64,000 bases of DNA from positions 66,269 through 130,268 of the IMG/VR virus record IMGVR_UViG_3300036820_000002. The stretch is one strand, 5' to 3'. The DNA is from a virus. The notes beneath the pieces are model-generated. The model did no database searches, had not been told where the DNA came from, and was given only the letters and a program-made list of their open reading frames with translations. The translations under genes were made by a program, and so were the position numbers. Positions 5,668 through 60,025 of this stretch are shown piece by piece. Positions within the stretch are counted from its first letter, which is position 1; each line of letters begins with the position of its first letter.

Positions 5668-5767
5668 ACAACTCCTTTTCCTGTGTGCTGGGTAACGGAA
5701 GACGGGCGGCTCTGCGCCGCGATCGCGGTACCTGCATGACAGTTGCATCACGCAGGTACCGCTCTCA

Positions 5768-15364: not shown

Positions 15365-15374
15365 CCGTGCCTTT

Positions 15375-24613: not shown

Positions 24614-24983
24614 GTTGATATCCTTTCTTTTCTACGGGTAGTACAACATACCAGGGCAGCGGGATGTTCCCTGATCCCCGGTGATTGACGCCAGTCTAAC
24701 CCTCTACGCGTGGAAGAGCTTTTTTTCCCTGAAATATCAAGCAGCCCTCTACACACGAGGGCTGTTTTTTTTTAACAAACTGCGGCCATGCTCCTGCTGA
24801 AACTCTCCTGCAAGCGGTTGCGCGGTTTCCGCTGATTTCCTTTTCATATCCGAGGGGGCCTGACGGCATTCCCGGTTAACTGCGTTAACTACAGGTGAAT
24901 CATCCTAACCCCAAGTTAACCGCATTAGCTGATAATTCGAACAAATGTGCGTAGAGTACATATTCGAATTATTACAGCACATC

Positions 24984-25154
24984 GTTAGCAAGACTAACCT
25001 TATTCGTTAGCAAGGCTAAGAGTAATGGTTAGTGGTGCTAAGAGTAATGGTTAGTGCTGCTAACCGTTATTGTTAGCGGTGCTAAGGGGAAGTAGTTAGC
25101 AGCACTAACCTTATTTGTTAGTTATGCTAACCATTATCCGTTAGTATAACTAAC
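24984..25154. repeat. array of 8 palindromes GTTAG-N5-CTAA(C/G), period 22-23 bp
   Basis: copies start at 24984, 25006, 25028, 25050, 25072, 25095, 25117 and 25140; AT-rich. Confidence 0.9.
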
Positions 25155-40375: not shown

Positions 40376-40437
40376 GGTGACCTCCGGCGGCCACTACGAC
40401 CTCGTCGCCCGATGACGCGTCGCTGCCGGGGGTCACC
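40376..40437 (+). ncRNA. single TIGR-like guide unit
   Basis: stem-CCA-ctacgacct-CGTCGCCCG-atgacgcgt-CG-stem. Confidence 0.75.
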
Positions 40438-40458
40438 ACAGCAGAGGGAGAAACCAGC

Positions 40459-40770
40459 ATGATCGAGGTATTCCGGACGGAAAACCCGCCGTTCCAGGGG
40501 GAGGTCTTCTACACGATCATCTCCGAGGATACCGGGAGCATCGTCATCGATACCGAGGCAGGCACGATCGACCTCAGCCGGGTCGCCGGGATCTTCGGCT
40601 CCGGTGAGGTAGCAGGAATCGTCGGCGGGGGTGACTTCCCCCGCACCGCCATGGTCACGGTGATGCCTCATGACATAGGACGCCGCCTGTACCGCATGCG
40701 GGCTGGCGGCAGCTACATATGGCAGGCAGAGAGCGACCCGGACCGCGCAGCGAGGATCGCTGCCGGGTAA
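40459..40770 (+). CDS. paralog family B member 1
   Basis: EVFR..GEVFYTIISEDTG..GTI..DIGRRLYR..Y.W. Confidence 0.7.
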   Translation: MIEVFRTENPPFQGEVFYTIISEDTGSIVIDTEAGTIDLSRVAGIFGSGEVAGIVGGGDFPRTAMVTVMPHDIGRRLYRMRAGGSYIWQAESDPDRAARIAAG

Positions 40771-40772
40771 CA

Positions 40773-40832
40773 GTAACCCCCGGCGGCCATCTCACCCCCG
40801 TCACCCATCGAGTATGCGCCGCCGGGAATTAC
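40773..40832 (+). ncRNA. single TIGR-like guide unit
   Basis: stem-CCA-tctcacccc-CGTCACCCA-tcgagtatg-CG-stem. Confidence 0.8.
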
Positions 40833-40898: not shown

Positions 40899-41357
40899 GT
40901 GAAAGAAGTATTCAGGGACACCGACCCGCGCAGTGACCGCACAGTCTTCCATGACGGTGATGTATTCTACACCATCATGAAGGAAGATACCGGTGCGGAG
41001 AGCATTCCCACTCAGGTAGGCACGATCAATGCCTGGCAGGTGATCGGGTGGAAATTCCCTGCTGTCGTATCCTCAGATACGGGCCGCCGTCTCTATCGCC
41101 GCAGTGACAGTGATGGCCATTATTTCTGGCGTACGGAAACAGGTCTGGAATACCGGAGCAGGCTCTGCGAGCAGGAAGCGGATAAGAAGAAGCGCCCCCC
41201 TATCGAGGAGGAGCGCTCACGGCTGCTCGCGGAGGAAGTCGCTCATCATGAGGCTAATATGCGCGCCGAGATGAAGCGGTTCAGCCGCGAGATGCAGCGC
41301 ATCCAGGATCTTTACCGGCTGCGCACGGAGACCCCGAGTGATCCTGCTCTCGGCTGA
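40899..41357 (+). CDS. paralog family B member 2
   Basis: EVFR..GDVFYTIMKEDTG..GTI..DTGRRLYR..YFW; GGAGG RBS. Confidence 0.7.
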   Translation: MKEVFRDTDPRSDRTVFHDGDVFYTIMKEDTGAESIPTQVGTINAWQVIGWKFPAVVSSDTGRRLYRRSDSDGHYFWRTETGLEYRSRLCEQEADKKKRPPIEEERSRLLAEEVAHHEANMRAEMKRFSREMQRIQDLYRLRTETPSDPALG

Positions 41358-47350: not shown

Positions 47351-48276
47351 AGAGAAGAAACGGATAGGACGGATATGCCGTCGGTAACCTGCTCACAATG
47401 TCCTTTCACCAGCTATAACCCGCATAATATCCGTGACGGCTACTGCGGGAACTGCCACGACTGGACCGGTGTCCCGGCCGGGGCCATCACGCCGGGGATG
47501 CAGGCTGTCATAGACATCGAGGAACGGCTGCTCTATCCTGCCTGGTACGACCGGCTGCGGTTCACCCCGGTCAGGTATCCCGGGGTCGGGTTCGTGGTCA
47601 TCGGGTCAGAGTCAGGGGTGTGCATCCGCATCTACGCCGCGAGCGGCGAGTCATCCGCCCGCTGCCAGCGGACCGCCGCCCGCTTCCATAGGATCCTGGC
47701 GAACGCCGGGTACCAGGTGGAGCACCGGCAGCTGGACCTGCTCGTCACCGGCAAGGGAGAAAAGCGCTATGCCTGAGTTCAGCGACCTCGCGAATACCGC
47801 AAAGTACGACCCTGATCACCTTGACCCCCGTGCGGTCCGCAGCGCCCTGCTGCGGGCCGTGGAGATCGAGGACGCCCTCCAGTGCCTCACCCGCTGCGGC
47901 ACGCTCAGCGTCGCGCGCAAGGGTGAGGAGACAGAGCTGTCGTTCGCTCTCCGGCTGGACAGCGAGACCGCTGACGCGCTACTGGTGGTACTGCTGGACC
48001 TCGGCGGGTTCACTCCCCTGATAGAGCGGGAAGAGTCATGAGCGGCTCGCACCGGAAGCGGGATGTACGGCGGCACCGGATAGCAGAGGAGAAAAGCAAT
48101 GGCCAGGATGCTGGCAGCGGCCCACGGGAAGAACCAGGCGGAGCGCCCTGACTGCTGCCGTGGCGATGACAAGTTCCGCGCACCTAGCGCCAAGCGCGTC
48201 CGCAAGGCTATCCAGCGGGCGCGGGAAAAGAGGGAATGGAAGGAGAAAGGCGTTGACCGGGGAAAGGAGACCGGCA

Positions 48277-48681
48277 ATGACCAGGATGGCGGAGCGCCCT
48301 AAGGAAGCTGCATGGGAATTCAAGGACACCGATCATATCGGGGATCCCACCAGGCTGTCGTGGACGTCATTCCTCAGCCGTGCTTTCGAGCTGGGATACC
48401 TTACTCCCGAGGAATACGCCCGGCGGCTGGAGATAATCGCCGGAGCAGTCACCAAGAGCGATATCGAGGAAGCTACCAGGAACCTGCCCTGCCGGCGGGA
48501 GTGGGGAATCAGCTGGAACGAGGCCAGGAAGAAGGGACTGCAGCCCCGGTGGGAGATTACCCCGCAGGCGTCCCGGCGCCGCCACCGTGACTGCGTCCGC
48601 CTGTTCGTGATAATCGCGATCATCACCGCCATCATCGAGATGACCGTCTTCATCGGGCTGATCGTCAACATCCTGGTATGA
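48277..48681 (+). CDS. DUF1707/SHOCT-like membrane protein
   Basis: LSRAFELGYLTPEEYARRL..A.T..LP plus a C-terminal TM helix. Confidence 0.65.
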   Translation: MTRMAERPKEAAWEFKDTDHIGDPTRLSWTSFLSRAFELGYLTPEEYARRLEIIAGAVTKSDIEEATRNLPCRREWGISWNEARKKGLQPRWEITPQASRRRHRDCVRLFVIIAIITAIIEMTVFIGLIVNILV

Positions 48682-48759
48682 AACATATGGAATGAAACAG
48701 TCCAGGTAAGCGTTACGCATACTGCGCGGTAACTCCCGAAAAGAAAATGAAGGAAGACC

Positions 48760-49986
48760 ATGACCACCTCCCGACAGCGCACCCGGGTCCGCCAGCCCGC
48801 CAGCCCCTCCGTCCTCGGCGGGGCCGCCATCCTCGGCGACATCCGCACCTTTACCGGCAGCATGCTCTACGCCGCCGATGAGATGCTGGACGCCCTCACC
48901 CTGGCCTGCGCGGCCACCCACACCATCGCCAGTTTCACCACCGTCCCCCGCCTGCTGGCCACCTCCGAGGAGGCGGAAAGCGGCAAGACTACCGTCCTGG
49001 ACATCATCACCATGCTGGGCAGCCACGCCTGGGAAGGGGAGAGCAGCCAGCCGGCGCTGCGAGCCGCCTTCCAGCGGCCGGAGCGGCCCGTGGTCGTCAT
49101 CGACGAGATCTCCCAGGTCTTCGGCAAGGGCGGTAACCGGGGCAACGGCACCGAGCTGGCCAAGATCCTGCTCAAGGGATACCGGTGCACCTCCACCTTC
49201 AGCCTCCAGGTCGACGGGGCCGATGATGAGATCAGCTCCTTCTGCTTCGCCGCGTTCGGCGGGCTGAAGAACGCCGTCCCGAAAGACATCCGCAGCCGCT
49301 GCATCGTGTGGAACATGCACCCGGCCCCGGAGAACATCCGGCTCCGCGACACTCTCGACGAGGACACCCTCGCGCTGGCGGAGATCCAGCGGACCCGGCT
49401 GCATCAGTGGGCCCGCACCCACGAGTCCGAGATCAAGGATGCCTTCCGCAACATGCGGGCGCCGCACCGCAAGTTCCGCTCCCGCCGCCGCCAGATCTGG
49501 GGCGCCCTGTTCGCCGTGGCCCAGGTCGCGGGCGGCGCCTGGCCGCAGAAGTGCCTGGCTGCCTTCAAGATGATGGGGCTGGACGCCTCCGACGCGGTCG
49601 TGCTGAGCGCCGAGCAGCGGGTCATCCGGGACGCGGCAGCCTGCTTCGAGCGGTCCGGTGCCGGGCAGATGCTGGGCGCCGACCTCCGCGAGCAGCTGCT
49701 GGAACTCCCTGACGCGAAGCTGTACCGGGCGCTGTCGGAGAACGGGTTCGCCCAGCTGATGTCAGCGGCGCTGGGGTCCAACCAGGCCATGACCGTCGGG
49801 AACCGGCGGGCCAGGGGATGGCACGCAGCCCGCGTGCTCACCCTCTGGGATGAGCTGGAGGAGCAGCTGGAGGCCGTCCAGGCACCCGGCGGCGACGACA
49901 ACCCCTACGAGGGCTTCTTCGACGTGGAGTACATCACGGAAGTCACGCATGTCACAGCGCATCAGAATGGAACGATAGCAGCATGA
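48760..49986 (+). CDS. P-loop NTPase / DUF3631-like replication-associated protein
   Basis: PRLL..SE.ESGKTT, VVIDE, ILLKGY, IRSRCI, W..L.AVA..AGG.WP. Confidence 0.75.
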   Translation: MTTSRQRTRVRQPASPSVLGGAAILGDIRTFTGSMLYAADEMLDALTLACAATHTIASFTTVPRLLATSEEAESGKTTVLDIITMLGSHAWEGESSQPALRAAFQRPERPVVVIDEISQVFGKGGNRGNGTELAKILLKGYRCTSTFSLQVDGADDEISSFCFAAFGGLKNAVPKDIRSRCIVWNMHPAPENIRLRDTLDEDTLALAEIQRTRLHQWARTHESEIKDAFRNMRAPHRKFRSRRRQIWGALFAVAQVAGGAWPQKCLAAFKMMGLDASDAVVLSAEQRVIRDAAACFERSGAGQMLGADLREQLLELPDAKLYRALSENGFAQLMSAALGSNQAMTVGNRRARGWHAARVLTLWDELEEQLEAVQAPGGDDNPYEGFFDVEYITEVTHVTAHQNGTIAA

Positions 49987-50108
49987 ATGCACGGATATCA
50001 CGTACCGACGATCGGTTCCCAGAGAGCCAGAGGATATCACGTGTGCCGGACCACCCCGGTAGATTGTGCAATTCCGGCTCCTGCAGCAGCCGCGTGAGGT
50101 TACCATAC

Positions 50109-50172
50109 GTCAGGGACAGCAGCACCAGACGAGGCCCGTCAGCCATGCATCCCGCCTGCTGCTGTCCCTGAC
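50109..50172 (+). ncRNA. single TIGR-like guide unit
   Basis: 16-bp stem GTCAGGGACAGCAGCA-CCA-gacgaggcc-CGTCAGCCA-tgcatcccg-CC-stem. Confidence 0.75.
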
Positions 50173-50539
50173 CTGAAACGGATAGAGGATATGAGCACCG
50201 GCATTCTCCGCCATGACGGCATCTACTTCCGCCGCTGGATGTGGTGGGCGCCCTGGGGCATCACGGACCCCTGGCGGCCCCGCCTCCTGCGCGGCGGCGA
50301 TGAGTGGTGCAACGACTCGGTCGCGGCCGGGCTGCCGTTCACCGGCCTCCTGGCTATCTCCTGGCGCAGGCGGCTGCGCGCGCTCCCCTGCCGGGACTGC
50401 TGGAGGCTGACCCCGGACTGGCAGCAGGCTGACTACGCGCCCTGCGGCTGGCTCCACGACGGCCGTCTCCGCGACGATGCTCACCACCACGTAGACGGCA
50501 TCTGCGATGACGCCCGGGGATGGCTTGCAGGGGAGCGGG

Positions 50540-50992
50540 ATGGACAGTGAAGACCGCCTCTGCACTCGCTGCGAGGCTCCGCTTCCCGGCACCCGCACCC
50601 TCTACTGCTCCACGACCTGCAAGAGGGCGGTGCAGCACTGGCGCGCGGCAGTCCGCAACGGCTGGCGCCGCACCGGGCTCAGCACCCATACCCCCCGAAA
50701 GCGCCGCATGCTGCTCATCCGGCAGGACGGGCGCTGCGGCATCTGCGGCCAGCCGGTCAGCTGGAACAGCGAACTCAACTGGGACCACATCATCCCCCGC
50801 TCCCACGGCGGGATTAATGCCCTCATCAACCTGCAGCTGGTACACCCCGCGTGCAACCAGCTCAAGGCAGACCGCTGCCCGTACTGCGAAGGAAGAGATA
50901 ATGCCCCCGAGACCGGAAAAGAAGACCGTGATCACCCTGGAAGTCCAGTCCCGGGATCCCGGTGGCGGACCCTGGCGGACCTGGGTCAATGA
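50540..50992 (+). CDS. HNH endonuclease
   Basis: QDGRCGICG..WDHIIPRSHGG...NLQLVHPACNQLK. Confidence 0.88.
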   Translation: MDSEDRLCTRCEAPLPGTRTLYCSTTCKRAVQHWRAAVRNGWRRTGLSTHTPRKRRMLLIRQDGRCGICGQPVSWNSELNWDHIIPRSHGGINALINLQLVHPACNQLKADRCPYCEGRDNAPETGKEDRDHPGSPVPGSRWRTLADLGQ

Positions 50993-51478
50993 GGGCCCGG
51001 AAGGAGATTCCACCGAGCAGGAGGCGCGCTTCGACGCGCAGCTTGCCATGGGCGGCACCCCGCACCTGGAGTACCGGATCGTCCGGATCATCGCGCGGCT
51101 GACCATCGAGACCCTGCCGCTGACGGAGGCTGCCAGTGAGCCTGCGCCGGTTTGACATCGAGACGATCCCGCTGGAGAAGGACGGGGACCGGATGTACTT
51201 CTGCACCCAGCCTGAGCTCCACACGGCCATCGAGGCCCTGCTCAACGGCGAGGGCCTGATCATCTACCGCACTGACAAGGACGCAAGAGAAGGGGCTGAG
51301 TACCGGTGAAATACGTGAAAAGCTGGACCTTCCACGCCATCGGCGACAAGATCCAGGTCATCTTCGAAAACAATACCCAGCAGAAGGACATCACCATGAC
51401 GCCCGCGCAGCTGGAGCGGTTCGCCGATGAGGCGCTGAACCGGGCGCTGGCCGCCCAGGGACGGGAAGGGAGCAGGTC

Positions 51479-51817
51479 ATGATAACACGGAGGAGGCACA
51501 CGGGCACCTCCCCCGCTCAGCGCGGGGCAGCCCTCCTCGACGAGGTGCGCCCTGGCTGGCGGGAGAACCTCACCCGGCCGGTCAACGTCACCAGTATCCG
51601 GGACTGCCCGCTCGGGCAGCTTTACGGCAGCTACGGCGAAGGAATGGTGACCTTGCGAAACCGTCACCACCGGGAAGACGCCCACTTCAGTGACTCCTGC
51701 GGGTTCACCACCGACCGGTCCTGGTACAAGAGCGCAGGTGCGCTGAACCGGGAATGGGCCGGCATCATCAGCGGGCGCCGGTCACTGTGGCAACGGCTGG
51801 CCGGGCGGGCGGCATGA
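51479..51817 (+). CDS. paralog family A member 5
   Basis: RGAALLDEVRPGW..CPLGQLYGSY..CGF..LNREW. Confidence 0.72.
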   Translation: MITRRRHTGTSPAQRGAALLDEVRPGWRENLTRPVNVTSIRDCPLGQLYGSYGEGMVTLRNRHHREDAHFSDSCGFTTDRSWYKSAGALNREWAGIISGRRSLWQRLAGRAA

Positions 51818-52367
51818 CCCCGCTGGCGGCGATGGCCGCGAAGATCAGCTACAAGCCCGGCTGGCAATTCTGGATTGATGACGGCGGCCGGCGTCCCCGG
51901 CTGGTCATCAAGGCATCCGTCCTCCACTCGCGGACACTGGAGCCGATCGCTTTCGAGGTGCGGCGGCTGATCCCGGGTATCGCCCAGGGTAACGCCGCCG
52001 TCTTCGCCAGCTGGGTGAAGGATGTCGTGGAGGAAACGGAGATCCACGAGCTAAGGGAGTTCTTCCGTTATAACGGCGAGCTGGCGGATGACCCGCATGC
52101 CGTTATAAGACAGGATGAAACAGGAGGACAGCCATGACCCCCGCCGGGAAGCTGGCAGGACAAGATGGCTAGGCAGCCGCCGGTACTGGTGAACGTCACC
52201 CGGGCCCCGGGAGCGCCTTTCCAGGGCACCCTGGGATACTGGTGGTACGTTACTCCCGCCGGGTACATCAAGCGCTGGCGGCACCCGGGGCCTCAGCTGA
52301 AGCCTCTCCCCGCTGGCGGCCATAAGTATCATCGGCGCTGTAAGGCACGGAAAAGAAGGAGCAGGAC

Positions 52368-52856
52368 ATGATGAAGAGAATGCTGGCAGCCGCACTAACC
52401 CTCGGAGGGTGCCTGCTGAGCACCACCGCAGCTCAAGCCGCTTTTCCAGGGTACGTCCTGGCATCCACCGGGAGCGTGGTCCTGGCAGGTGCTCACGCGA
52501 AGCCCCTCCTCTGCCTGGCCACACCGGATATCACGAGCGCTGCCGTGACCGTGCGGCCCTGCAGTGACGTTACTGAACAGCAATGGATCCTGGTCCGGAA
52601 CTGGGGGCTGGCTGTCCCGAAAATTCACCTGGACCGTGCGCATCTCGGCATCTGGTACGGGCGCATCATGCTGCTGCCGGGACGCATCGGGGCGGTGTCC
52701 TTCACCCAATACCACGGTAATCAGTGGCTGATTAAGCTCGGCGGCCTGTGCCTGAGCGTTCCTCCGGCCACCAGGTCAGTACTCTGGGAGCGCTGCGGAA
52801 TCCCTGGCGCGAAGCAAATCTGGATAATACGGCCCTGGGAGCTGGTAAAGCTGTGA
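52368..52856 (+). CDS. secreted ricin-B/beta-trefoil-like protein
   Basis: signal peptide; CL..V.VRPC...QQW, GLCL...C....KQIW. Confidence 0.55.
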   Translation: MMKRMLAAALTLGGCLLSTTAAQAAFPGYVLASTGSVVLAGAHAKPLLCLATPDITSAAVTVRPCSDVTEQQWILVRNWGLAVPKIHLDRAHLGIWYGRIMLLPGRIGAVSFTQYHGNQWLIKLGGLCLSVPPATRSVLWERCGIPGAKQIWIIRPWELVKL

Positions 52857-53390
52857 GCGAGTCCGTGAAGCGGCGGCTGCGTGCCGTCAGCGACCAGGAC
52901 AAGGAACAGGTCATCATGCAGCTGCTGACCATCTGGCAGGAGTATCCCTCCCTGCGGCTCGGGCAGCTGATCGCGAACGCCTTCCCGCCGGACATCAGCG
53001 AGCCCCTTGCTTACATCGAGGACTCCGTCCTGATCGCGGGGCTGCAGAGGGTCTACCCGAGGAAGCGGGATTACCCGGAGGGAGCGGAGTAACCGTGGAT
53101 TACCTGGTGACCACCGAGGATGAAAGCGCCGGGCCGCTGGTATTCTCTACCGACGAGGAGCTGGCTGAGGTGCTGCAGAACTACGTGGAGCAGTATCTCC
53201 AGCCGGGATGGACAGGACCCGCGATCACCGGGATCTGGGCTACCGGGGACTCTGGTATGCGCACCGAGCTGGAGCTCGCCGAGATTACCAGGATTCCCGA
53301 GATCGAGCAGATCGAGGTGATCTATGCTTTGCGCAGCAAGGGCAGTATGCTCTGCGAGTATTTCTGGTTCTCCGTGTGGGTGAACCGGTA

Positions 53391-53641
53391 GGATGTACCC
53401 GGCCGGACAATAGCAACACTATGCCCATTGTTGCGGCCCCGGCCGGGTATCCAGTAAAGGAAAAGATATGAGACAGCTGTTCGTCTGGACCGGGCAGGAT
53501 TAAGCTGACCTCCCCGGCTGGCCAAGGAGGCGTCATCACCCCGCACACTCTCGCCGACCGGGGTCGGTCCTGCTGAGCTAACTGCCGGGCCGGCCAAAGC
53601 GGATACGCCGCCCAGGTCATGATCGCCGGCCCGGGCAGTTA
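53391..53641 (+). ncRNA. TIGR-like mini-array, 3 stem-loop units
   Basis: units at 53391, 53507 and 53579; e.g. CCA-aagcggata-CGCCGCCCA-ggtcatgat-CG. Confidence 0.75.
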
Positions 53642-53698
53642 CCTGAAAAGACCCCGGGACAGCACCAAGGCTGTCCCGGATCCTGAAAGGAATGATAA

Positions 53699-54436
53699 GT
53701 GACTGCACCAGAACGCACTGAGACCGGGGGCCCGTCGAGGACCCCGCGCAGTGAGATCACCGCCGTCGTCTCAGCGAACCGCACGAAAGAGCCGGTGGCC
53801 CTGCTGGACCTGTCCACCTCGATGGACTGGGAAGCAGAACAGGGCGGACCGGAATGGGACGGCACCAGCGGGGGCAGGCGCGGCCTGGTCATCGCGGCGC
53901 TCCACGGACTGGTCGCCTCTCTTGAAAACGAGGACAGCGAGGCCGCTGGCGAGCAGGCCGGCGGCAGTGACGACCGGGGGGGCCTGATGGCCCACGGCTT
54001 CGCCAGCGGCCACGTGGAGATCGGTGACCTGAACTCCTCCAACCTGGAGCGGCGGCTGAGTGCCATCCCGTGGGGCGGCACCACCCATATCATGCCTGCG
54101 TGGAAGGCGGCGCTAGCGGACTACGACGAGGAGTTCGGCGACCGCGAGCCTGGTGAGCAGCCGGTAATGCTGGTGCTGGTCATTACCGACGGGGAGGCCG
54201 ACGACTGGGCCGAGTTCGGGCCGGTGCTGGAGACCGCGAACGCCCGCCGCGTCTTCACGGTAGCCGTCGTCGGGCACAGCGACCACCACGATGCCACCGT
54301 CCGCGCCTACCAGCAGGCGGCAGCGCGGAACACCGCGCAGGACGCGTTCGGCAAGACCCACGTCCATGTCGTCAGCTTCGACTCGGTGACGGACCCGGCG
54401 GAGATCGCCGAGGACCTGATCACCTTGATGGGATAA
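53699..54436 (+). CDS. von Willebrand factor A domain protein
   Basis: MIDAS DLSTS, GGTT, LVITDGEADD. Confidence 0.85.
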   Translation: MTAPERTETGGPSRTPRSEITAVVSANRTKEPVALLDLSTSMDWEAEQGGPEWDGTSGGRRGLVIAALHGLVASLENEDSEAAGEQAGGSDDRGGLMAHGFASGHVEIGDLNSSNLERRLSAIPWGGTTHIMPAWKAALADYDEEFGDREPGEQPVMLVLVITDGEADDWAEFGPVLETANARRVFTVAVVGHSDHHDATVRAYQQAAARNTAQDAFGKTHVHVVSFDSVTDPAEIAEDLITLMG

Positions 54437-54439
54437 CAG

Positions 54440-54889
54440 GTGAAGCTGACCAGGACGCAAGCCCAGAGCATGCTCCGAGGCGACGGGACCGTGACGGGCC
54501 TGTCTCTCGAAGCCGACCGGCAGACCGGCTCCGGTCGGTGGGAGAGCATCCACCAGTTGGTGCTCCGGGACAGCCAGGAGCATTACTGGGCGGCCCGCTA
54601 CACCCGGGGCCTCACCGAGTACCAGGACCAGGAGCCGTTCGAGGGCCAGGAAGAGGTGGAGTTCGCCCGGGTGCAGAAGGTACCCGCAGCAGGCTTCGAC
54701 TACACCCCGGAACCCGACGGCAAGGACTGCCGGGTGAACCAGCTGATGACCCTGTCAGCAGCTAAACTCGCCGCCGAGATCAGCCGGGTGCAGGGGCTGC
54801 TGGAGTCCGGGACGCCGTCGCCGGACTACCAGGCCTTCCTGGTCCACGACCTGGCCGACCTGACGCACCTGCTGATAACGGGGAGGTAG
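54440..54889 (+). CDS. phage hypothetical protein
   Basis: GRWES...YTRGLTEYQD..PF motif. Confidence 0.6.
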   Translation: MKLTRTQAQSMLRGDGTVTGLSLEADRQTGSGRWESIHQLVLRDSQEHYWAARYTRGLTEYQDQEPFEGQEEVEFARVQKVPAAGFDYTPEPDGKDCRVNQLMTLSAAKLAAEISRVQGLLESGTPSPDYQAFLVHDLADLTHLLITGR

Positions 54890-54930
54890 ATGATACTCCC
54901 GGCTAGCCACGCCTGCCAGCCGGGCCTGAC

Positions 54931-55250
54931 TGCCCCGTCACCGGAGAGGTCACGGTACCCAAAAGGATGTCGTGGCGGGGCACCGTCTCTCCCGGGCAGC
55001 CGCCTGGCCGGCCATCCACGGTCCCGCACTCCCAGTGACGGCTCACCAGCCAGGTACAGCCCGCCTCCCGGCGGCCAAATGGATCGCGTCGTCCACGATG
55101 AGCTCGCCGCCGGGAGGCGTGACCAGCCCCCCTTATTCCCGCAGGCCATCTCGTTTCCGGCCCCCATGAGGAGCTTGCCTGCGGGATCCACGGATCCCCC
55201 CTTGCGGTCAAGCTACGCTCACTGCCCATAGGTGCGCCGCCGCAAGGGGG
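54931..55250 (+). ncRNA. TIGR-like array, 4 clear + 1 degenerate stem-loop units
   Basis: units at 54931, 55062, 55137 and 55197; e.g. CCA-aatggatcg-CGTCGTCCA-cgatgagct-CG in a 13-bp stem. Confidence 0.85.
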
Positions 55251-55802
55251 TCAGTCCTCGCCGACGACCTCGGCATCCACGATGTCGGGGTTGCCCTCCA
55301 GCATCCTGGTCAGCTCCGCGTTCCTGTTGATCAGGTCAGCCACGTAGGCCTGCCATTCCAGCATCTCCCTGGTCTCATCCACCACCTTGGGCTTGCGGAT
55401 GTGCAGCCCGTAGAGGGCGCTCACCTCATGGATCACCGAGGTCACCGCCTTCGCCGCCTCGATGGTGACGGTGTCATCCAGCACCGGCCGGGAGAAGTCG
55501 GGGCGGCCGTTAGCATCGAGCTCGTAGACGGGCTTGCCGCTGGGGGAGACGCGGACCTGGCGCGGCTGGGTCATCAGGAACAGCAGCTTCTCATCAAGCA
55601 CGTATTCGAGCTTGGCCGCCATCTGCTCGCGCTTCTCGTCGTCAGGGATGGAGTCGCGCTGAGCGTGGTTGATCTGGCTGACCCGGGCAACGGTGATGCC
55701 GTAGGTGTCGGCGATGTCGGCGAGCCGGTCACCGCGCGCGATCCGGGCGGTGATCTCCAGGTCCCTGCGGATCAGGGAGATATCTCTCGAACGTCCGCCC
55801 AC
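55251..55802 (-). CDS. HTH protein, possibly terminase small subunit-like
   Basis: N-terminal HTH LADIADTYGITVARVSQI; SGKPVY..PVLDD..LYGL..P. Confidence 0.6.
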   Translation of the reverse strand: MGGRSRDISLIRRDLEITARIARGDRLADIADTYGITVARVSQINHAQRDSIPDDEKREQMAAKLEYVLDEKLLFLMTQPRQVRVSPSGKPVYELDANGRPDFSRPVLDDTVTIEAAKAVTSVIHEVSALYGLHIRKPKVVDETREMLEWQAYVADLINRNAELTRMLEGNPDIVDAEVVGED

Positions 55803-55914
55803 ACACTCCTAGAACATTTAGCCGGAATAAGCCACCTAAAGGCTATCACGGGGAAAACTGATGATCATCATGCGCCAGCGCGCCGCGTGTGTCAGGATTA
55901 ATCCGGATCACCCC

Positions 55915-55943
55915 TTGACGGGGTACGAACCATGGGGTACGTT
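55915..55943 (+). promoter_or_regulatory. putative promoter of the TIGR-Tas-like operon
   Basis: TTGACG-N17-TACGTT; overlaps a GGGGTACG direct repeat. Confidence 0.6.
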
Positions 55944-55986
55944 TCAGTCCATACGCGAAGAGAATGCTCCGCCGGAAGGGAACCCG

Positions 55987-56502
55987 ATGACCGCCAGCAC
56001 TGACACCGGAGCTGACACTGAGGTGTTCAGCCTCAATCACCTGCTCCGCGAGGTATGGGATGAGCTCGGCGGCGCCGACTACCACATCCTGGCCCACGAG
56101 GTGCTGCACCGGCTCGACCCTGCGCACTACGAGGCCGCCCTCGGGCAGGCCCTGGCCGTCTACACCTCCCGGTTCGTGGGCAGCAAGCGGATGCGCACCC
56201 CGCACCAGGCAGGCCAGCAGAACTCGGGGCGCTCGGCCAAGGTACGGGGCATCCGGACCGCCTCCGCGCAGCTGCGCACCATCTGGTACGCCACCCCCGA
56301 TGGCCAGAAGGCGCTCGGCGACTGCACCCTCTCCGACGTCTTCTACATCGTCGGCGGGCTGGAGCGGCAGGCCCGCCAGCACATGGACAAGGCACGGTGG
56401 CTGCGCGGCCTCGCGGAGGCGATGACCACCCACCCGGTCCGCCGCGTGCAGGACCTCCCCGCCGGTATCATCAGCGGCTTCTTCACCGGGGCCGAGCAGT
56501 GA
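55987..56502 (+). CDS. hypothetical protein upstream of the guide array
   Basis: 171 aa with purine-rich RBS; KALGDCT..D..V.DLP motifs. Confidence 0.7.
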   Translation: MTASTDTGADTEVFSLNHLLREVWDELGGADYHILAHEVLHRLDPAHYEAALGQALAVYTSRFVGSKRMRTPHQAGQQNSGRSAKVRGIRTASAQLRTIWYATPDGQKALGDCTLSDVFYIVGGLERQARQHMDKARWLRGLAEAMTTHPVRRVQDLPAGIISGFFTGAEQ

Positions 56503-56527
56503 CCGCCCGGCCGGGCGGGGCATTCAT

Positions 56528-57427
56528 CCTGCGGGCCAGCGCCTGTTCGCCACTCATCCCGCCTGCGCCCGCAGGCTCCGCTGTTCCCGGCGGCCAGGCT
56601 GTTCCCGGCGGCCAGAGGTGCCACGGCGCTCATGATAGCACCGTCGCCGGGGCTCCCGTCCTGCAGGCCACTGCCTGTCCGCCACTCATCCCCGGCGCGC
56701 TTGCAGGGCTCATCATTCCCGGCAGCCAGATGCCATCCGGCACCCATGCTCCGCCCGCTGCCGGGGGACTCTTCCCGCTTGCGGGGATCTCCTCTTCCGG
56801 TGGCCAGCGCCCGCGCGTCAGCCGTGCCTCCTCCGCCACCGGAAGCCCCATCATCTCGCAGGTCATCTGCCTCACGTCAGCCAGGCGTTCCTCGCCTGCG
56901 GGAACCTTCCGCCCTCGCAGCCAGTCTGCCGCTGAGGTCCTCCCCCGCCCGCAGGCCGATCATTACTCGCCGCCCATCAGTGAGCCGCCTGCGGGCCTTC
57001 ATCCAGACCGCAGCCATCCCCCGGCCGCCGCTCATATAGCCGTCGCTGCGGTTCCCTCACCCCCGCAGGCCGATCCTGACGCGTTCTCCATCCGTGTCGC
57101 CGGCCGGGACCACGCCTTCCCGCAGGTCATGCACTCGTGGCTGCCATCAGGAGCTCTGCTCCCCATTTGCGGCTCGCAGCTGCAGGCCGTCATCCCGGCG
57201 GCCACTGACGTGGCCGCCGTTCATCCAGCCAGTGCTGCCGGGGACCGCCGGCCATCACGCTCCCGTCTCCCGAGATGGCTGCGCCGGAAAGGGAAAAAAG
57301 GAACTACCATGATCACCGCCGAGACTCTCCCCGGGACCCAGCAACCTGGCGTCACCCATAACTATGCCGGTCCCGGGGAGCCGGCAGCCAGTCCTAGCGC
57401 GCCTTCCATGACAGCCCCGCTGCTGGC
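56528..57427 (+). ncRNA. main TIGR-like stem-loop array (about 12 clear + 3 degenerate units)
   Basis: units at 56528, 56604, 56660, 56718, 56794, 56855, 56947, 57007, 57194, 57248, 57327 and 57381, with stem-CCA-N9-CG(N5)CA-N9-CG-stem geometry and minor box variants. Confidence 0.88.
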
Positions 57428-58706
57428 CAACCCCGCCCTCGCGCTGGCCGCTGACGTGGTCTCTGACCTAGAGAAGGTCAGGATCGCCAACCAGAACCGG
57501 CTGCGCCAGATGATCCGCTCCGTTGAGGACTCCGACGGGGAGGAACGCGGCCTCGGGCTGCTGCCCCCCGGCTTCAGCAAGGACAGCAGGACCCTGGTCG
57601 ATGACATCCAGGACGCGGCGATCGCGATCACGGCCGCCGCTGACAGCCTGCGCCAGCGGCCCCGCTGCCCCGAGGGGTGGGTCCCTGACGTGTGGAACCT
57701 CACCCTGATCATCGTGATGATGGTAACGGCGGAGAAGGACGCGATCCGCAACCTGGAGCGGATCATGAAGCAGCACCCGCTCGGGCCCTGGGCCGCGCAG
57801 CAGAAGGGCGTCGGGAACAAGCAGCTGGCCCGGCTGCTGGCCGCGACCGGCGACCCCTACATCCGGCCCGAGATCACCCTCGCCGACGGCACCGTGGACC
57901 CCTCCCGCCCCCGGCGCGGCCCCGCCGAGCTGTGGGCCTACTGCGGCTACCACGTGCTGACTGCCGTCGTCGGCGGCACCGAGGTAGGCGTGGCCCCCCG
58001 CCGCAAGCGCGGCGAGCACGCCAACTGGTCCGCCGACGCGAAGATGCGCGCCTACCTGGTGGCAGAATCCTGCATCAAGCAGAAGGGCACCCCTTACCGG
58101 GATCTCTACGATATGACCAGGATCAAGCACGCAGACGCGCTGCACAGGGCGGAGTGCCTGCGCTGCGGGCCCAAGGGGAGCCCGGCCCAGCCGGGAAGCC
58201 CCCTCTCCGACGGTCACAAGCACGCACGCGGGCTCCGCGCCGTGGCCAAGGAGGTGCTGAAGGAACTGTGGCGCGAAGCACGCCGCCTGCACCACGGCGG
58301 CACCGACCCTGACGGCCCCCGGGATTCCCTGCCGCCCCTTCTTCCCGCATCATCCATGGCACGGTCGGCGGCAGGGAACGGCCCGGCCAAGCAGGTTACG
58401 TCCCCCACTGGGTCCCCGCCGGCCAGAGATACCACCTCACCCACGATCACCTCGCCGACCATAAAGGTCACCTCACCCATGATTACTTCGTCGGCCAGAG
58501 ACACCCCGTCACCCATGAATCCTCCGCCGGGCCTGCCGGACTTCCTCGCCGACCTGGACACCTTCCTCGGCAGCCTGCCTCCTCTCTCCGCCGGAGACGA
58601 CCGCAGCCATGTATCCTCCGTCCCCCAGAATGAAGGCGCTGCGGATGACCCCTCCCCCGGACATGGCGACACCGGTACCCCTATGGCTGGCCCCGGGGGA
58701 GAATGA
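57309..58706 (+). CDS. IS110/Nop-domain RNA-binding protein with no nuclease domain (TasA-like)
   Basis: coiled coil (DLEKVRIANQNRL), KGVG..LARLL, LWAYCG, APRRKRG, W...KMR.YL, YD..R, H..G.R..KE.LKELW; no DEDD RuvC or HNH; alternative start at 57408. Confidence 0.8.
   Translation: MITAETLPGTQQPGVTHNYAGPGEPAASPSAPSMTAPLLANPALALAADVVSDLEKVRIANQNRLRQMIRSVEDSDGEERGLGLLPPGFSKDSRTLVDDIQDAAIAITAAADSLRQRPRCPEGWVPDVWNLTLIIVMMVTAEKDAIRNLERIMKQHPLGPWAAQQKGVGNKQLARLLAATGDPYIRPEITLADGTVDPSRPRRGPAELWAYCGYHVLTAVVGGTEVGVAPRRKRGEHANWSADAKMRAYLVAESCIKQKGTPYRDLYDMTRIKHADALHRAECLRCGPKGSPAQPGSPLSDGHKHARGLRAVAKEVLKELWREARRLHHGGTDPDGPRDSLPPLLPASSMARSAAGNGPAKQVTSPTGSPPARDTTSPTITSPTIKVTSPMITSSARDTPSPMNPPPGLPDFLADLDTFLGSLPPLSAGDDRSHVSSVPQNEGAADDPSPGHGDTGTPMAGPGGE
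58383..58531 (+). repeat. 4 tandem TIGR-like units with exact 36-nt period
   Basis: CCA at 58387, 58423, 58459 and 58495; loops CGTCCCCCA/CCTCACCCA/CCTCACCCA/CGTCACCCA; variable 9-mers. Confidence 0.88.
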
Positions 58707-58767
58707 CCAGGTCCCCGCAGGTTCAGGGAGATGATGCCACCCAAACTCAGTCCGCCTGCGGGGACCT
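58601..58767 (+). ncRNA. 3 further TIGR-like stem-loop units
   Basis: units at 58601, 58652 and 58709; e.g. CCA-tgtatcctc-CGTCCCCCA-gaatgaagg-CG. Confidence 0.8.
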
Positions 58768-58823
58768 CTACGCGTAAGGGAAATGCCCCCAGCGGGGGAA
58801 ACCGGATTGAAGAGGAGAAAACC

Positions 58824-59051
58824 GTGAGCTGCCCGATGTGCCCGCACTGCACGGGCGCCCCCGAGAACCTGCTGTCCGCCGGGGATGTCGCCACCTTGTT
58901 CCGGGTGGACCCCAAGACGGTCACCCGGTGGGCGAATGAGGGGTGGCTGGCCTGCACTCGCACCCTCGGCGGCCACCGCCGCTACTCCCGTGACGAGGTG
59001 GACGCGATCATCGCCACCGGGAGGCGGCCCGGCCGCCGGGACGCGGCGTGA
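58824..59051 (+). CDS. bldC: BldC-family MerR-like/excisionase DNA-binding protein
   Basis: LLSAGDVATLFRVDPKTVTRWA..G.L...RTLGGHRRY closely follows the BldC signature. Confidence 0.85.
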   Translation: MSCPMCPHCTGAPENLLSAGDVATLFRVDPKTVTRWANEGWLACTRTLGGHRRYSRDEVDAIIATGRRPGRRDAA

Positions 59052-59341
59052 GCGTGCGGTCCGCCGGGACGGCCGTGAGCAGGCGGGCCGGGCTCAACCT
59101 GCGTGCCGAGCGGCTCGCGGCGGGGCTGCGCCCGGACCAGCTGTCCGCGATGATCACCCTGTCCGGGAGCCGCGTCTCCGCCAAGCTGATCGAGCTGATC
59201 GAGCACGGCATCCCGGACCGCAGGCGGGGACGGCGGGTCAGGGTCATGTCCGTCGACGAGGCGTGGATCTTCGCCGGGGTGCTCGGCATCCCGGTCACCC
59301 GGCTGCTGGAGGAAAGGAGCGATGATGGTCAGGATTCTTGA
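59048..59341 (+). CDS. XRE-type HTH protein
   Basis: LRAERLAAGL..DQL..IELIEHG..SVDE..FA.VLGI. Confidence 0.7.
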   Translation: MSVRSAGTAVSRRAGLNLRAERLAAGLRPDQLSAMITLSGSRVSAKLIELIEHGIPDRRRGRRVRVMSVDEAWIFAGVLGIPVTRLLEERSDDGQDS

Positions 59342-59557
59342 CGGGGAGCTGCCCCCGGTGCAGGTGCCGGGGGTCCCGCTGCCGCTGTACGTCGGCATGA
59401 GCCTGCAGGGACCCTGCGTCTTGGCCGACGGCGAGAAGGCAGCCAGGTGGCTGCTGCAGGACCCGCATGCCCGGCGGCTGTGGATCCTGCCCGGACCCGC
59501 CACCGAGCTGACCATCATGCCGGCGATCGCGGCCCGGCTGATCCCGAAGGAGTCCTG

Positions 59558-60025
59558 ATGGGCAACCACTCCGATACCCTGGCCCGCAGCTCGTTCGCGC
59601 TGTCCTCAGCGCCGGGCAGGCATGCGGTAATAAAACCGCCCCGGCTCCCGCACAAGGGGAAGCTGCCGCGCTGGTGCCCGACCTGGAAGCACGCCGCTGC
59701 CGGGTACATCGCCACCGCCGGGATCACGCTGGCCATCCTGGCCGGGACCGCCGGGGGATCCAGCGCGTCCGTGCCGCCGCCGGCCCGCCACCCGGGAATC
59801 ATGGCTCCGGCGTCAGCCCCGGCTAGCACTGCTCCCGCTCCCTCCTCCTCTCCGGCCCCGCCGGTTCCCGCCGTGACCCGCTACACGGCGCGGCCCGGGG
59901 ACACCCTGTGGGGGATCGCGGTCCGCCAGTGCGGCACCGCCGCTGACGTCAGCACGCTGGCCCGCGCTAACAAGATCAGCGGCGGCCAGCTCAGGATCGG
60001 GGAGAGCATTGTCATCACCTGCTAA
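59558..60025 (+). CDS. membrane-anchored LysM protein
   Basis: TM helix, Pro/Ala linker, YTARPGDTLWGIA..LARAN..LRIGE. Confidence 0.8.
   Translation: MGNHSDTLARSSFALSSAPGRHAVIKPPRLPHKGKLPRWCPTWKHAAAGYIATAGITLAILAGTAGGSSASVPPPARHPGIMAPASAPASTAPAPSSSPAPPVPAVTRYTARPGDTLWGIAVRQCGTAADVSTLARANKISGGQLRIGESIVITC

What the first reader, a model, noticed from the sequence alone, without database searches (positions are those of the whole stretch)
50109..55250. Satellite guide clusters between unrelated genes
Seen: 1 unit at 50109, 3 at 53391-53641 and 4-5 at 54931-55250. All are on the plus strand, with different stems (up to 16 bp) but an invariant 3+9+9+9+2 interior. Different stem sequences with preserved pairing amount to internal covariation. 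Inference: the guide repertoire is spread through the early transcripts.
Basis: partly seen in the sequence, partly recalled or inferred. Interest (0 to 1): 0.8.

Follow-up and report, generated by a model that had tools for sequence, protein, structure and literature searches.

The report
Scattered TIGR guide hairpins in phage
These hairpins are extra guide-RNA units of a known phage system (TIGR-Tas) that sit between unrelated genes 2-7 kb from the protein that would use them, an unusual layout whose expression is untested.

Summary
Eight of the nine proposed units are real: one at 50109-50172, three at 53396-53634 and four at 54931-55250. The possible fifth unit near 55002 is a degenerate remnant. 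Each is a plus-strand hairpin with a different 9-16 bp stem around an exactly 32-nt interior, CCA-N9-CG-N4-CCA-N9-CG.

They belong to a stem-loop TIGR-Tas system, a published kind (Faure 2025; Xu 2026). Its nuclease-less TasA-type gene lies at 57408-58706 of the window. The fold has pLDDT 90.5, and the top structural matches are TasH-tigRNA and TIGR-TasR complexes. About 20 further units surround or lie inside that gene.

A covariance model trained only on units next to tas recovers four of the finding's units at E below 1e-3 and two near 0.05. Box positions are conserved (8.75 of 10 against 2.9 expected), while spacers are as unlike as random sequence. That argues for selection on Tas binding.

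What is unusual is the layout. Across 66 related loci, all strong units but one lie within about 1.6 kb of tas. Here they lie 2.2-7.3 kb away, and two more lie 17 kb away, among phage-specific genes.

Expression, processing and targets could not be tested: no RNA run is listed and no target was found above controls. Verdict: a known kind in an uncommon, dispersed arrangement.

The parts
50109..50172 (+). Solo satellite unit S1. 16-bp perfect stem, 32-nt interior at 50125-50156. Lies between the ORF ending at 49986 (DUF3631) and the ORF starting at 50191.
   Evidence: R1 E 0.044. Fold -36.4 kcal/mol, z -5.7. 9/10 box positions.
53396..53449 (+). Satellite unit S2a. 11-bp stem, interior at 53407-53438. 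This is the most degenerate unit for its boxes, and its two spacers can partly pair with each other.
   Evidence: R1 E 0.44. 7/10 boxes. Starts 4 nt after the stop of ORF 53095-53391.
53512..53563 (+). Satellite unit S2b. 10-bp stem with one mismatch, interior at 53522-53553.
   Evidence: R1 E 0.12. Fold z -2.9. 8/10 boxes.
53585..53634 (+). Satellite unit S2c. 9-bp perfect stem, extendable to about 16 bp with a bulge. Interior at 53594-53625.
   Evidence: R1 E 4.6e-5. 10/10 boxes.
54931..54982 (+). Satellite unit S3a. 10-bp stem including a G-U pair, interior at 54941-54972. Begins 41 nt after the stop of ORF 54440-54889.
   Evidence: R1 E 0.05. Fold z -2.1. 9/10 boxes.
55002..55055 (+). Doubtful fifth element of cluster S3. 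Weak stem round a loop of about 41 nt with degenerate boxes. Probably a decayed unit or chance.
   Evidence: R1 E 3.3. Fold z -1.9, with 5 of 200 shuffles folding as well.
55062..55119 (+). Satellite unit S3b. 13-bp perfect stem, interior at 55075-55106.
   Evidence: R1 E 1.6e-7. 10/10 boxes.
55137..55186 (+). Satellite unit S3c. 9-bp stem, interior at 55146-55177. Its second box D is TG.
   Evidence: R1 E 4.4e-7. 9/10 boxes.
55197..55250 (+). Satellite unit S3d. 11-bp stem, interior at 55208-55239. It ends one base before the stop codon of the convergent minus-strand ORF 55251-55802.
   Evidence: R1 E 8.6e-5. 8/10 boxes.
40376..40826 (+). Two further solo units outside the finding (interiors start at 40391 and 40787), 16.6-17.0 kb upstream of tas. 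Each starts 7-9 nt after a plus-strand stop codon.
   Evidence: R1 E 1.8e-4 and 1.1e-8.. Distances.
55861..56502 (+). Gene of unknown function (phrog_4604) that opens the conserved module gene-array-tas.
   Evidence: phrog_4604 at 8.8e-12. Homologs lie directly upstream of the array in 14 of 37 related loci.
56526..57055 (+). Main upstream array: 8 clean stem-loop units, with interiors starting at 56536, 56612, 56668, 56726, 56804, 56863, 56956 and 57014. Weaker units follow at 57060, 57192 and 57248.
57408..58706 (+). tas gene, TasA type with no nuclease domain. The public gene call is 432 aa from 57408. An alternative ATG at 57309 has a purine-rich stretch before it. Units at 57338 and 57388 lie at its 5' end. 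Units at 58336, 58387, 58423, 58459, 58495, 58607 and 58661 lie in its 3' tail.
   Evidence: phrog_4285 at 5e-78. Profile against PDB: TasR 9mty 2.4e-16, TasH 1.9e-9. AlphaFold pLDDT 90.5. Foldseek top hits are the TasH and TasR complexes. Gene call P0002.
58712..58764 (+). Unit with a 33-nt interior just after the tas stop codon.
   Evidence: R1 E 0.005.

Best explanation
The window is the last 64 kb of a circular, roughly 130-kb phage from soil. Its relatives are proviruses of Actinomycetota. It carries one stem-loop TIGR-Tas system.

The conserved module is: a gene of unknown function (55861-56502), then an array of stem-loop guide units, then a nuclease-less TasA-type gene (57408-58706) with more units at both of its ends.

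The eight hairpins of the finding are additional units of the same guide type. Each has a variable stem, then box C (CCA), a 9-nt spacer A, box D (CG), four bases, a second box C (CCA), a 9-nt spacer B and a second box D (CG). They sit in three intergenic gaps 2.2-7.3 kb upstream of tas, outside the conserved module, among genes that no relative has near tas.

Shown here: their presence, strand, geometry, covariation, box conservation against randomised spacers, the Tas identity of the protein, and the rarity of this layout among relatives.

Inferred, by analogy with published stem-loop TIGR systems: the units are transcribed as parts of the plus-strand operons they follow. A TasA dimer made from the single tas gene binds the boxes and the stem in trans. 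Host RNases trim the flanks. [quoted passage not shown] TasA would bind there without cutting and repress transcription.

The satellites would add eight distinct guides. They may also tie guide supply to other transcription units, and may double as 3'-end hairpins for those messages.
For: Tas identity:
- The 300-aa core folds at pLDDT 90.5.
- Its best structural matches are TasH-tigRNA-dsDNA (9w04) and TIGR-TasR with tigRNA and target DNA (9mty), at E 2-4e-7. IS621 bridge-RNA recombinase and Nop5/Prp31 follow.
- The family profile hits 9mty at 2.4e-16 and TasH at 1.9e-9.
- The model begins directly with the coiled-coil helix, and Pfam finds no HNH or RuvC domain.

Unit identity:
- R1 was trained on 12 tas-proximal units only. 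It finds 53584, 55065, 55136 and 55198 at E 4.6e-5 to 1.6e-7, and 50113 and 54931 at about 0.05.
- Genome-wide, 20 of the 21 hits at E <= 0.01 lie at window 40.4-58.7 kb, and all 21 are on the plus strand.

Selection on the boxes:
- The satellites match 8.75 of 10 box positions. Tas-proximal units match 9.18, and 2.94 is expected from base composition.
- Their spacers are 26% identical pairwise, against 27% expected at random.

Stems: they covary.

Clade consensus: in 190 units pooled from this phage and relatives, positions that were not imposed by the filter are 94-97% conserved.

Fit with published anatomy:
- Xu 2026 (bioRxiv 10.64898/2026.09.09.750476, sections 5, 7 and 11 plus passages read) reports 9-nt loops, units upstream of, downstream of and inside tas, a detection motif set that includes CCA with CG, and TasA acting as an RNA-guided repressor.

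Only one tas gene exists in the genome.
Against: - No expression or processing data exist for this DNA.
- Four of the eight units are weak model matches (E 0.044-0.44). Three of those four have degenerate boxes (7-8 of 10); the fourth, at 50109, matches 9 of 10. A fifth unit, 55197-55250, also matches only 8 of 10. Some units may therefore be decaying.
- No DNA target was found. In the phage's own genome there are 5 sites with at most 3 mismatches, against 2-12 in 20 mispaired controls. In 356 kb of related loci there are 17 sites, against 6-18 in the controls.
- The published CUU processing motif at the stem base occurs in only 12% of the clade's units.
- Cluster 54931-55250 lies in a different transcription unit from tas, separated from it by a minus-strand gene. 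Nothing shows that transcript is made when TasA is present.
- Model R1 was trained on this phage's own units. It is therefore more sensitive here than in relatives, which inflates the contrast in layout.
Confidence: 0.7

Rival explanations
1. The satellites are relics. They would be former guide units left behind when the genome was rearranged or genes were inserted. They would no longer be loaded by TasA and would be kept, if at all, as structural hairpins that end or stabilise the upstream messages.
For: - Satellite boxes are slightly more degenerate than tas-proximal ones (8.75 against 9.18 of 10).
- Four of eight units score E 0.044-0.44 with R1.
- One neighbouring element (55002-55055) looks decayed.
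- The units sit 3-120 nt after plus-strand stop codons, where terminal hairpins are expected.
- The last unit abuts a convergent gene.
- The genes between the clusters have no homologs near tas in any relative, which fits insertions.
Against: - The spacers are fully randomised, yet the ten box positions and the exact 32-nt interior are kept in all eight units. That is hard to explain without selection on Tas binding.
- A plain structural hairpin has no need for a 32-nt loop.
- The best four satellites score as well as trained units.
- Tas-proximal units carry the same kinds of box variants (TCA, CCG, CCC).
Confidence: 0.22
2. The hairpins are ordinary intrinsic terminators or attenuators that resemble guide units only by chance.
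For: They are G+C-rich stems placed just after plus-strand genes.
Against: - The loops are 32 nt, not 3-8 nt, and no run of T follows.
- The terminator-like scan found 18 sites at 40.0-59.5 kb, all on the minus strand and none at the units.
- Box positions match at 8.75 of 10, against 2.94 expected.
- The same interior is conserved in 190 units of related tas loci, against 1 on the opposite strand.
Confidence: 0.03
3. The elements act as DNA rather than RNA. For example, they could be palindromic protein-binding or recombination sites, or sites that the Tas complex itself recognises.
For: Inverted repeats can be DNA sites. Tas proteins are related to IS110 recombinases.
Against: - The box motifs are strictly strand-specific and always on the tas strand: 190 units against 1, and all 139 and all 91 hits on the tas strand.
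- Stems covary through G-U pairs, which exist only in RNA.
- No guide of this phage matches any unit or any other site in the genome above controls.
Confidence: 0.03

Closest known systems
Stem-loop TIGR array with TasA from a Peromyscus leucopus gut contig (PlTasA). Sources: Faure et al. 2025, PMC12045711, section 9 passages read; Guan et al. 2026, bioRxiv 10.64898/2026.08.11.744272, abstract and section 5 read.
   Same: - A nuclease-less Tas made of a coiled coil plus a Nop domain.
- Units with variable palindromic stems.
- Two 9-nt spacers, each preceded by box C and followed by box D.
- Several sub-arrays rather than one block.
   Different: - There the 13 units form three sub-arrays about 450 nt apart at the tas locus. 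Here eight units lie 2.2-7.3 kb away and two lie 17 kb away, separated from tas by 2 to more than 10 protein genes, one of them on the opposite strand.
- Box D here is CG.
- The published system has RNA-seq and cryo-EM data. This one has none.
Bifidobacterium longum TasA and Candidatus Staskawiczbacteria TasR loci, and the TIGRFinder census. Source: Xu et al. 2026, bioRxiv 10.64898/2026.09.09.750476, sections 5, 7, 11 and methods passages read.
   Same: - Units lie upstream of, downstream of and inside the tas coding sequence.
- A 9-nt loop between the spacers.
- Stems conserved only next to the boxes.
- The motif set includes CCA with CG.
- Overlapping stems are counted as zero linker length.
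- TasA acts as a repressor.
   Different: - The census looked at up to 10 kb on each side of tas (median recovered 5.4 kb) and describes arrays as surrounding tas.
- I found no statement about solo or clustered units among unrelated genes in the text I read.
- Its figures and supplementary tables were not visible to me and may bear on this.
Compact arrays of this same Tas clade in Actinomycetota phages and proviruses, including Mycobacterium phage Bethlehem gp71 (annotated as transposase).
   Same: - Same Tas family, at 31-65% identity.
- Same 52-nt unit model.
- Same strand rule.
- Same upstream gene in 14 of 37 loci.
   Different: In 66 related loci, every strong unit except one (L068, 6.3 kb upstream) lies within about 1.6 kb of the tas match. 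Bethlehem has five units packed into the 335-nt gap before gp71.
Orphan or remote CRISPR arrays. This is an analogy from general knowledge and was not tested here.
   Same: Guide-encoding elements at a distance from the single effector locus that must serve them in trans.
   Different: The guide architecture differs (dual short spacers in a hairpin). There are no repeats of fixed sequence, no adaptation genes, and the effector lacks a nuclease.

Membership tests
TIGR-Tas, stem-loop type | A Tas protein with a coiled coil and a Nop-like C-terminal RNA-binding domain is encoded in the same genome. | tested here: met
   - Profile against PDB: TasR 9mty 2.4e-16, TasH 1.9e-9.
- Fold pLDDT 90.5.
- Foldseek top ten hits are all TasH or TasR complexes at E 2e-7 to 2e-6.
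- No Pfam family matches.
TIGR-Tas, stem-loop type | Each unit holds two short variable spacers (8-12 nt). Each spacer is preceded by box C and followed by box D. | tested here: met
   - All eight satellites read 3+9+9+9+2, with 7-10 of 10 box positions.
- The clade consensus from 190 units has un-imposed positions 94-97% conserved.
- Box D is CG, which is within the published motif set.
TIGR-Tas, stem-loop type | Variable but consistently palindromic flanks form a stem. | tested here: met
   - A3: 88.3% of cells paired, 11 of 12 pairs changed on both sides, 0 of 500 shuffles as high.
- A1: 96.3% of cells paired, 9 of 9 pairs changed on both sides.
- Folds.
- The units were partly selected for pairing.
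TIGR-Tas, stem-loop type | Units stand in tandem arrays adjacent to tas: upstream, downstream or inside it. | tested here: not met
   - The main array meets this feature. The eight units of the finding do not.
- They occur as groups of 1, 3 and 4, at 2.2-7.3 kb from tas, with protein genes between.
- This is a criterion of layout, not of mechanism. It is why I file the finding as a variant.
TIGR-Tas, stem-loop type | Units lie on the same strand as tas. | tested here: met
   All units are on the plus strand. The same rule holds in relatives.
TIGR-Tas, stem-loop type | Units are transcribed, processed into single stem-loop RNAs and bound by Tas. | not testable with these tools
   The only listed run holding this DNA is a soil metagenome DNA run.
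TIGR-Tas, stem-loop type | Spacers A and B pair with opposite strands of a contiguous DNA target. | tested here: inconclusive
   - No site above mispaired controls in the phage's own genome or in 356 kb of related loci.
- The host is unknown.
- 18-nt sites are too short for searches of large collections, as Xu 2026 also states.
TIGR-Tas, stem-loop type | A CUU motif at the stem base, the processing site reported by Xu 2026. | tested here: inconclusive
   CTT is about 14-fold enriched at position -12, but it is present in only 12% of 190 units.
TasA subtype (no nuclease) | No RuvC or HNH domain precedes the coiled coil. | tested here: met
   - The model's first element is helix 9-36 of the coiled coil.
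- Pfam finds no HNH or RuvC in the 769-aa open frame.
- The separate HNH gene at 50507-50992 is a free-standing phage endonuclease.
Intrinsic terminator | A short G+C-rich hairpin with a 3-8 nt loop, followed by a run of U. | tested here: not met
   The loops are 32 nt. There are 0 plus-strand terminator-like sites at 40.0-59.5 kb.
Any Rfam family, including box C/D sRNAs | A match to a curated covariance model. | tested here: not met
   0 matches at E <= 0.1 in 39000-60000. No tRNA or tmRNA in the window.

The most novel reading that the evidence does not exclude
Guide units of a TIGR-Tas system can leave the array and settle as single or small groups of hairpins at the 3' ends of unrelated operons. 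There they would serve two roles at once: message-end or processing structures, and trans-acting TasA guides. Guide supply would then follow the timing of several transcription units. If so, Tas genes now reported as 'arrayless' may draw on dispersed guides that array-centred searches miss.
Probability: 0.3. Interest if true: 0.6.

Novelty: new variant of a known kind. Interest (0 to 1): 0.45.

Why it matters
TIGR-Tas systems were described in 2025. Their natural targets and biological roles are stated to be open (Faure 2025 discussion; Xu 2026 discussion).

This phage shows that well-formed guide units can lie kilobases from tas, in other transcription units and among genes unrelated to the system. 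Three things follow:
- Censuses that look for arrays next to tas can undercount a phage's guide repertoire. The two units 17 kb away lie beyond the 10-kb flanks used by TIGRFinder.
- It offers a concrete alternative guide source for Tas genes reported without arrays, which Xu 2026 names as an open question.
- It raises a testable idea: guide production may be tied to the timing of different operons.

The same clade is present in cultured mycobacteriophages such as Bethlehem. The basic biology can therefore be tested in Mycobacterium smegmatis.

The kind of system and the unit anatomy are already published, so this is a refinement rather than a new principle.

Tried and rejected
1. A relaxed hairpin scan (7 of 8 pairs, any loop) did not separate signal from shuffles: 421 against 336-403. 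I replaced it with the motif-plus-pairing scan.

2. Self-targeting. No site in the 130-kb genome rose above mispaired controls in either target geometry. The same held in 356 kb of related loci. I did not scan the large collections for 18-nt sites, because chance matches would dominate.

3. Expression. No RNA holder is listed for window 50000-58800. The one DNA holder may be the source sample.

4. Close relatives.
- Megablast of 48000-60000 against GenBank phages found nothing.
- The portal region is only about 30% identical to known phages.

5. A second tas gene or a second copy of the upstream gene that might own the satellites: none found.

6. Synteny. None of the 12 genes tested between 48.7 and 55.8 kb has a homolog in relatives' flanks. 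So I could not decide between an array split by insertions and units that moved.

7. Promoter scan. There are no informative plus-strand sites near the units. The consensus used is not suited to Actinomycetota.

8. Literature.
- One search was badly built and useless.
- 'tigRNA' with 'orphan' gave one general review, seen only in the listing.
- 'tigRNA' with 'dispersed' gave none.
- The words orphan, distant and dispersed are absent from the main text of Xu 2026.
- Figures and supplements of the papers were not visible and may show unit positions far from tas.

Full report
**What is in the sequence**

The stretch 50109-55250 holds plus-strand hairpins whose stems all differ. Their interiors all measure exactly 32 nt and read CCA, nine variable bases, CG, four bases, CCA, nine variable bases, CG.

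A perfect-stem scan of the whole window shows loop lengths of 30, 32 and 34 nt at 15-17 occurrences each, against 1-9 for most other lengths. These are the same hairpins closed at different points.

A combined motif-and-pairing scan gives 29 plus-strand and 7 minus-strand sites at loose thresholds. No minus-strand site combines 9 or more box matches with full pairing.

Eight units in the finding stand up:
- 50109-50172
- 53396-53449, 53512-53563 and 53585-53634
- 54931-54982, 55062-55119, 55137-55186 and 55197-55250

The possible fifth unit of the last cluster (55002-55055) is at noise level in the model search. It folds weakly round a loop of about 41 nt.

**What system they belong to**

An open frame at 56397-58706 matches phrog_4285 ('transposase') at 5e-78 over residues 338-634. 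It has no Pfam match.

The public gene call is 432 aa from 57408. Its first 300 residues were folded with 23 relatives and give pLDDT 90.5. The best structural matches are:
- the TasH-tigRNA-dsDNA complexes and the TIGR-TasR complex with tigRNA and target DNA (E 2-4e-7);
- then the IS621 bridge-RNA recombinase;
- then Nop5 and Prp31.

The family profile hits TasR (9mty) at 2.4e-16 and TasH at 1.9e-9. The model starts with the coiled-coil helix and has no nuclease domain, so this is a TasA-type protein.

Around it lie at least eight clean units upstream (56526-57055), two at the 5' end of the gene, seven in its 3' tail and one after the stop codon.

This is the stem-loop form of TIGR-Tas:
- Faure et al. 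[quoted passage not shown]
- Xu et al. 2026 report 9-nt loops, units upstream of, downstream of and inside tas, a detection motif set that includes CCA with CG, and TasA acting as an RNA-guided repressor.

My tests agree.

**Are the satellites the same thing?**

I trained covariance model R1 on 12 units next to tas only and searched the window with filters off. The units it was not trained on score as follows:
- 40777 at 1.1e-8
- 55065 at 1.6e-7
- 55136 at 4.4e-7
- 53584 at 4.6e-5
- 55198 at 8.6e-5
- 40381 at 1.8e-4
- 50113 at 0.044
- 54931 at 0.05
- 53511 at 0.12
- 53397 at 0.44

So four of the eight units in the finding are strong matches, two are marginal and two are weak. The model covers only 9 stem pairs, so long stems such as the 16-bp one at 50109 earn no extra credit.

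The window is the last 64 kb of a 130,268-bp virus record with a 127-bp terminal repeat, which makes it effectively circular. In the whole genome, 20 of the 21 hits at E <= 0.01 lie at window 40.4-58.7 kb on the plus strand. The remaining hit is a 33-nt-interior unit just past the window's end.

The satellite stems covary: 88.3% of cells are paired against 58.4% in shuffles, and 11 of 12 pairs change on both sides.

The satellites match 8.75 of 10 box positions. Tas-proximal units match 9.18, and 2.94 is expected from composition. Their spacers are 26% identical pairwise, which is the random level.

Boxes and interior length have therefore been kept while everything else has drifted. That is the signature of selection on Tas binding rather than of a plain hairpin.

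**What is unusual**

I compared 66 related tas loci:
- 10 from viral contigs, also searched as whole contigs of 16-111 kb;
- 26 from metagenome contigs, mostly short, four with long flanks;
- 30 from Actinomycetota genomes, most with 10-kb flanks on both sides.

The hit counts are 66 at E <= 0.05, 139 at E <= 0.01 and 91 at E <= 0.001 respectively. All but one of these (a minus-strand hit in L002 at E 0.0085) are on the tas strand, and they are packed next to or inside tas, typically about 59 nt apart.

Distant hits in the whole viral contigs are only marginal (E 0.006-0.034).

One exception counts against uniqueness. L068 has a well-formed solo unit 6.3 kb upstream of a tas that is 31% identical.

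With a strict structure-first filter, no unit in 36 relatives lies more than 1.5 kb from the tas match. This window has seven units at 2.2-16.6 kb.

The gene at 55861-56502 has homologs directly upstream of the array in 14 of 37 loci. None of the genes that separate the satellite clusters has a homolog in any relative's flanks. The genome has a single tas.

The satellites therefore lie outside the conserved module, among phage-specific genes, and would have to be served in trans.

One caution applies. R1 was trained on this phage's units and is more sensitive here than in relatives.

**Position and likely transcription**

Each satellite or cluster begins 3-120 nt after a plus-strand stop codon: after 49986, 53391 and 54889 in the finding, and after 40369 and 40770 further upstream.

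The cluster 54931-55250 ends one base before the stop of a convergent minus-strand gene (55251-55802). That gene separates the cluster from the tas module.

No canonical terminator features are present. The loops are 32 nt, no run of T follows, and there are no plus-strand terminator-like sites at 40.0-59.5 kb.

The units are thus placed where they would be carried at the ends of, or between, cistrons of plus-strand messages. Neither promoters nor timing could be established, and no RNA run is listed. 'Early transcripts' remains an inference.

**Mechanism**

- Shown: the anatomy, the Tas protein and the conservation pattern.
- Inferred from the published systems: transcription with the surrounding operons; binding of a TasA dimer to the boxes and the stem; trimming by host RNases; and guidance to an 18-bp site, with spacer A pairing one strand and spacer B the other.
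- I took the target geometry as spacer A followed by the reverse complement of spacer B on one strand. This follows from the 8-nt 3' overhang reported by Faure 2025 and from box C sitting at the unwinding junction in Guan 2026.

Without a nuclease, TasA would be expected to bind and repress (Xu 2026 abstract and section list).

All 27 spacer pairs in the window are distinct. I found no target in the phage itself or in related loci above mispaired controls. The host is unknown.

**Rivals**

- Relics. The main rival is that some or all satellites are relics kept only as structural hairpins. It is supported by their slightly weaker boxes, by four weak model scores and by the decayed neighbour at 55002. 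It is opposed by the kept boxes and the exact interior length against fully randomised spacers.
- Chance terminators. This is excluded by loop size, the lack of a T run and box conservation.
- DNA sites. This is opposed by strict strand specificity and by G-U pairs in the stems.

**Novelty**

The kind of system, the unit anatomy, the CG box D, units inside tas and overlapping stems are all in print.

I did not find a description of guide units scattered singly or in small groups among unrelated genes, kilobases from tas:
- 'tigRNA' with 'dispersed' returned no paper.
- 'tigRNA' with 'orphan' returned one general review.
- The words orphan, distant and dispersed are absent from the main text of Xu 2026.

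Figures and supplements were not visible to me. TIGRFinder took up to 10 kb of flank, so such units may sit unremarked in its tables.

I rate this a new variant of a known kind, of moderate interest.

Noticed in passing
window 58387-58530: Four units follow each other at an exact 36-nt period and share 4-8 bp stems. This is a dual-repeat-like mini-array inside the 3' tail of the tas open frame, in the same locus as long-stem units. Xu 2026 counts overlapping stems as zero linker length. Faure 2025 mentions intermediates between the two array types.
   Followed up: partly
window 55861-56502, and loci L002, L003, L004, L008, L011-L014, L016, L017, L023, L031, L032, L034: A gene of unknown function (phrog_4604, no Pfam match) lies directly upstream of the array in 14 of 37 related loci at 30-48% identity. 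Gene-array-tas is therefore a conserved three-part module, and this gene is a candidate accessory factor.
   Followed up: partly
190 pooled units from the window and L001-L037: Every third spacer base after each box C (interior positions 6, 9, 12 and 24, 27, 30) is G+C-rich: 71% against 53% elsewhere, Fisher p 7e-23. The effect is strongest in units upstream of tas (n = 141), so translation in the tas frame does not explain it. It is not evident in the window's 15 units alone. The main texts of Faure 2025 and Xu 2026 do not mention it. Possible causes are codon-phased targets or a structural preference.
   Followed up: partly
window 40376-40437 and 40779-40826: Two solo units lie 16.6-17.0 kb upstream of tas (R1 E 1.8e-4 and 1.1e-8), beyond the 10-kb flanks used by TIGRFinder. 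The ORF 40459-40770 between them has a 36%-identical paralog at 40905-41168.
   Followed up: partly
genome G000 bases 312-364, about 0.2 kb past the window's end on the circular map: Another plus-strand unit with an 11-bp stem and a 33-nt interior, whose middle segment lacks the second CCA. It lies about 5.5 kb downstream of tas (R1 E 0.0099).
   Followed up: partly
L038 (Mycobacterium phage Bethlehem) 5219-5523, and L039 (prophiFSAT01-1) 5748-5924: Bethlehem gp71, annotated as transposase, is a Tas homolog (43% identity). It has five units in the 335-nt gap before it. In prophiFSAT01-1 the units overlap gene 26, an annotated hypothetical protein, so that gene call may be spurious. In all, 90 GenBank phage records carry a homolog, 83 of them mycobacteriophages.
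   Followed up: partly
loci L001-L037, units inside the tas match: All 34 of the 34 units that lie inside the tas coding match start in the same reading-frame phase relative to tas. This fits a homologous insertion that is kept translatable.
   Followed up: no
L068 3632-3683: A well-formed solo unit lies 6.3 kb upstream of a divergent tas (31% identity) in an Actinomycetota genome bin. Near that tas only marginal hits are found (E about 0.04). This is the only other strong distant unit among the 66 related loci.
   Followed up: partly
window 56397-58706: One frame stays open for 769 codons across the whole upstream array and into tas. An ATG at 57309 with a purine-rich stretch before it would place two units inside the coding sequence. 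The public gene call starts at 57408, inside a unit's interior.
   Followed up: partly
window 24873-25110: A+T-richer hairpins with 30-34 nt loops but no box motifs. They are unrelated to the guide family (R1 E 3.8).
   Followed up: no
window 11270-15400, minus strand: A 1376-aa ORF. Only its first third matches portal proteins, at about 30% identity, and a short stretch matches a MuF-like protein. This suggests a large fusion protein.
   Followed up: no
window 53653-53680: A short-loop 11-bp hairpin lies between the last unit of the 53.4-53.6 kb cluster and the next gene. On the minus strand it reads as a terminator-like site. All 18 terminator-like sites at 40.0-59.5 kb are on the minus strand.
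   Followed up: no
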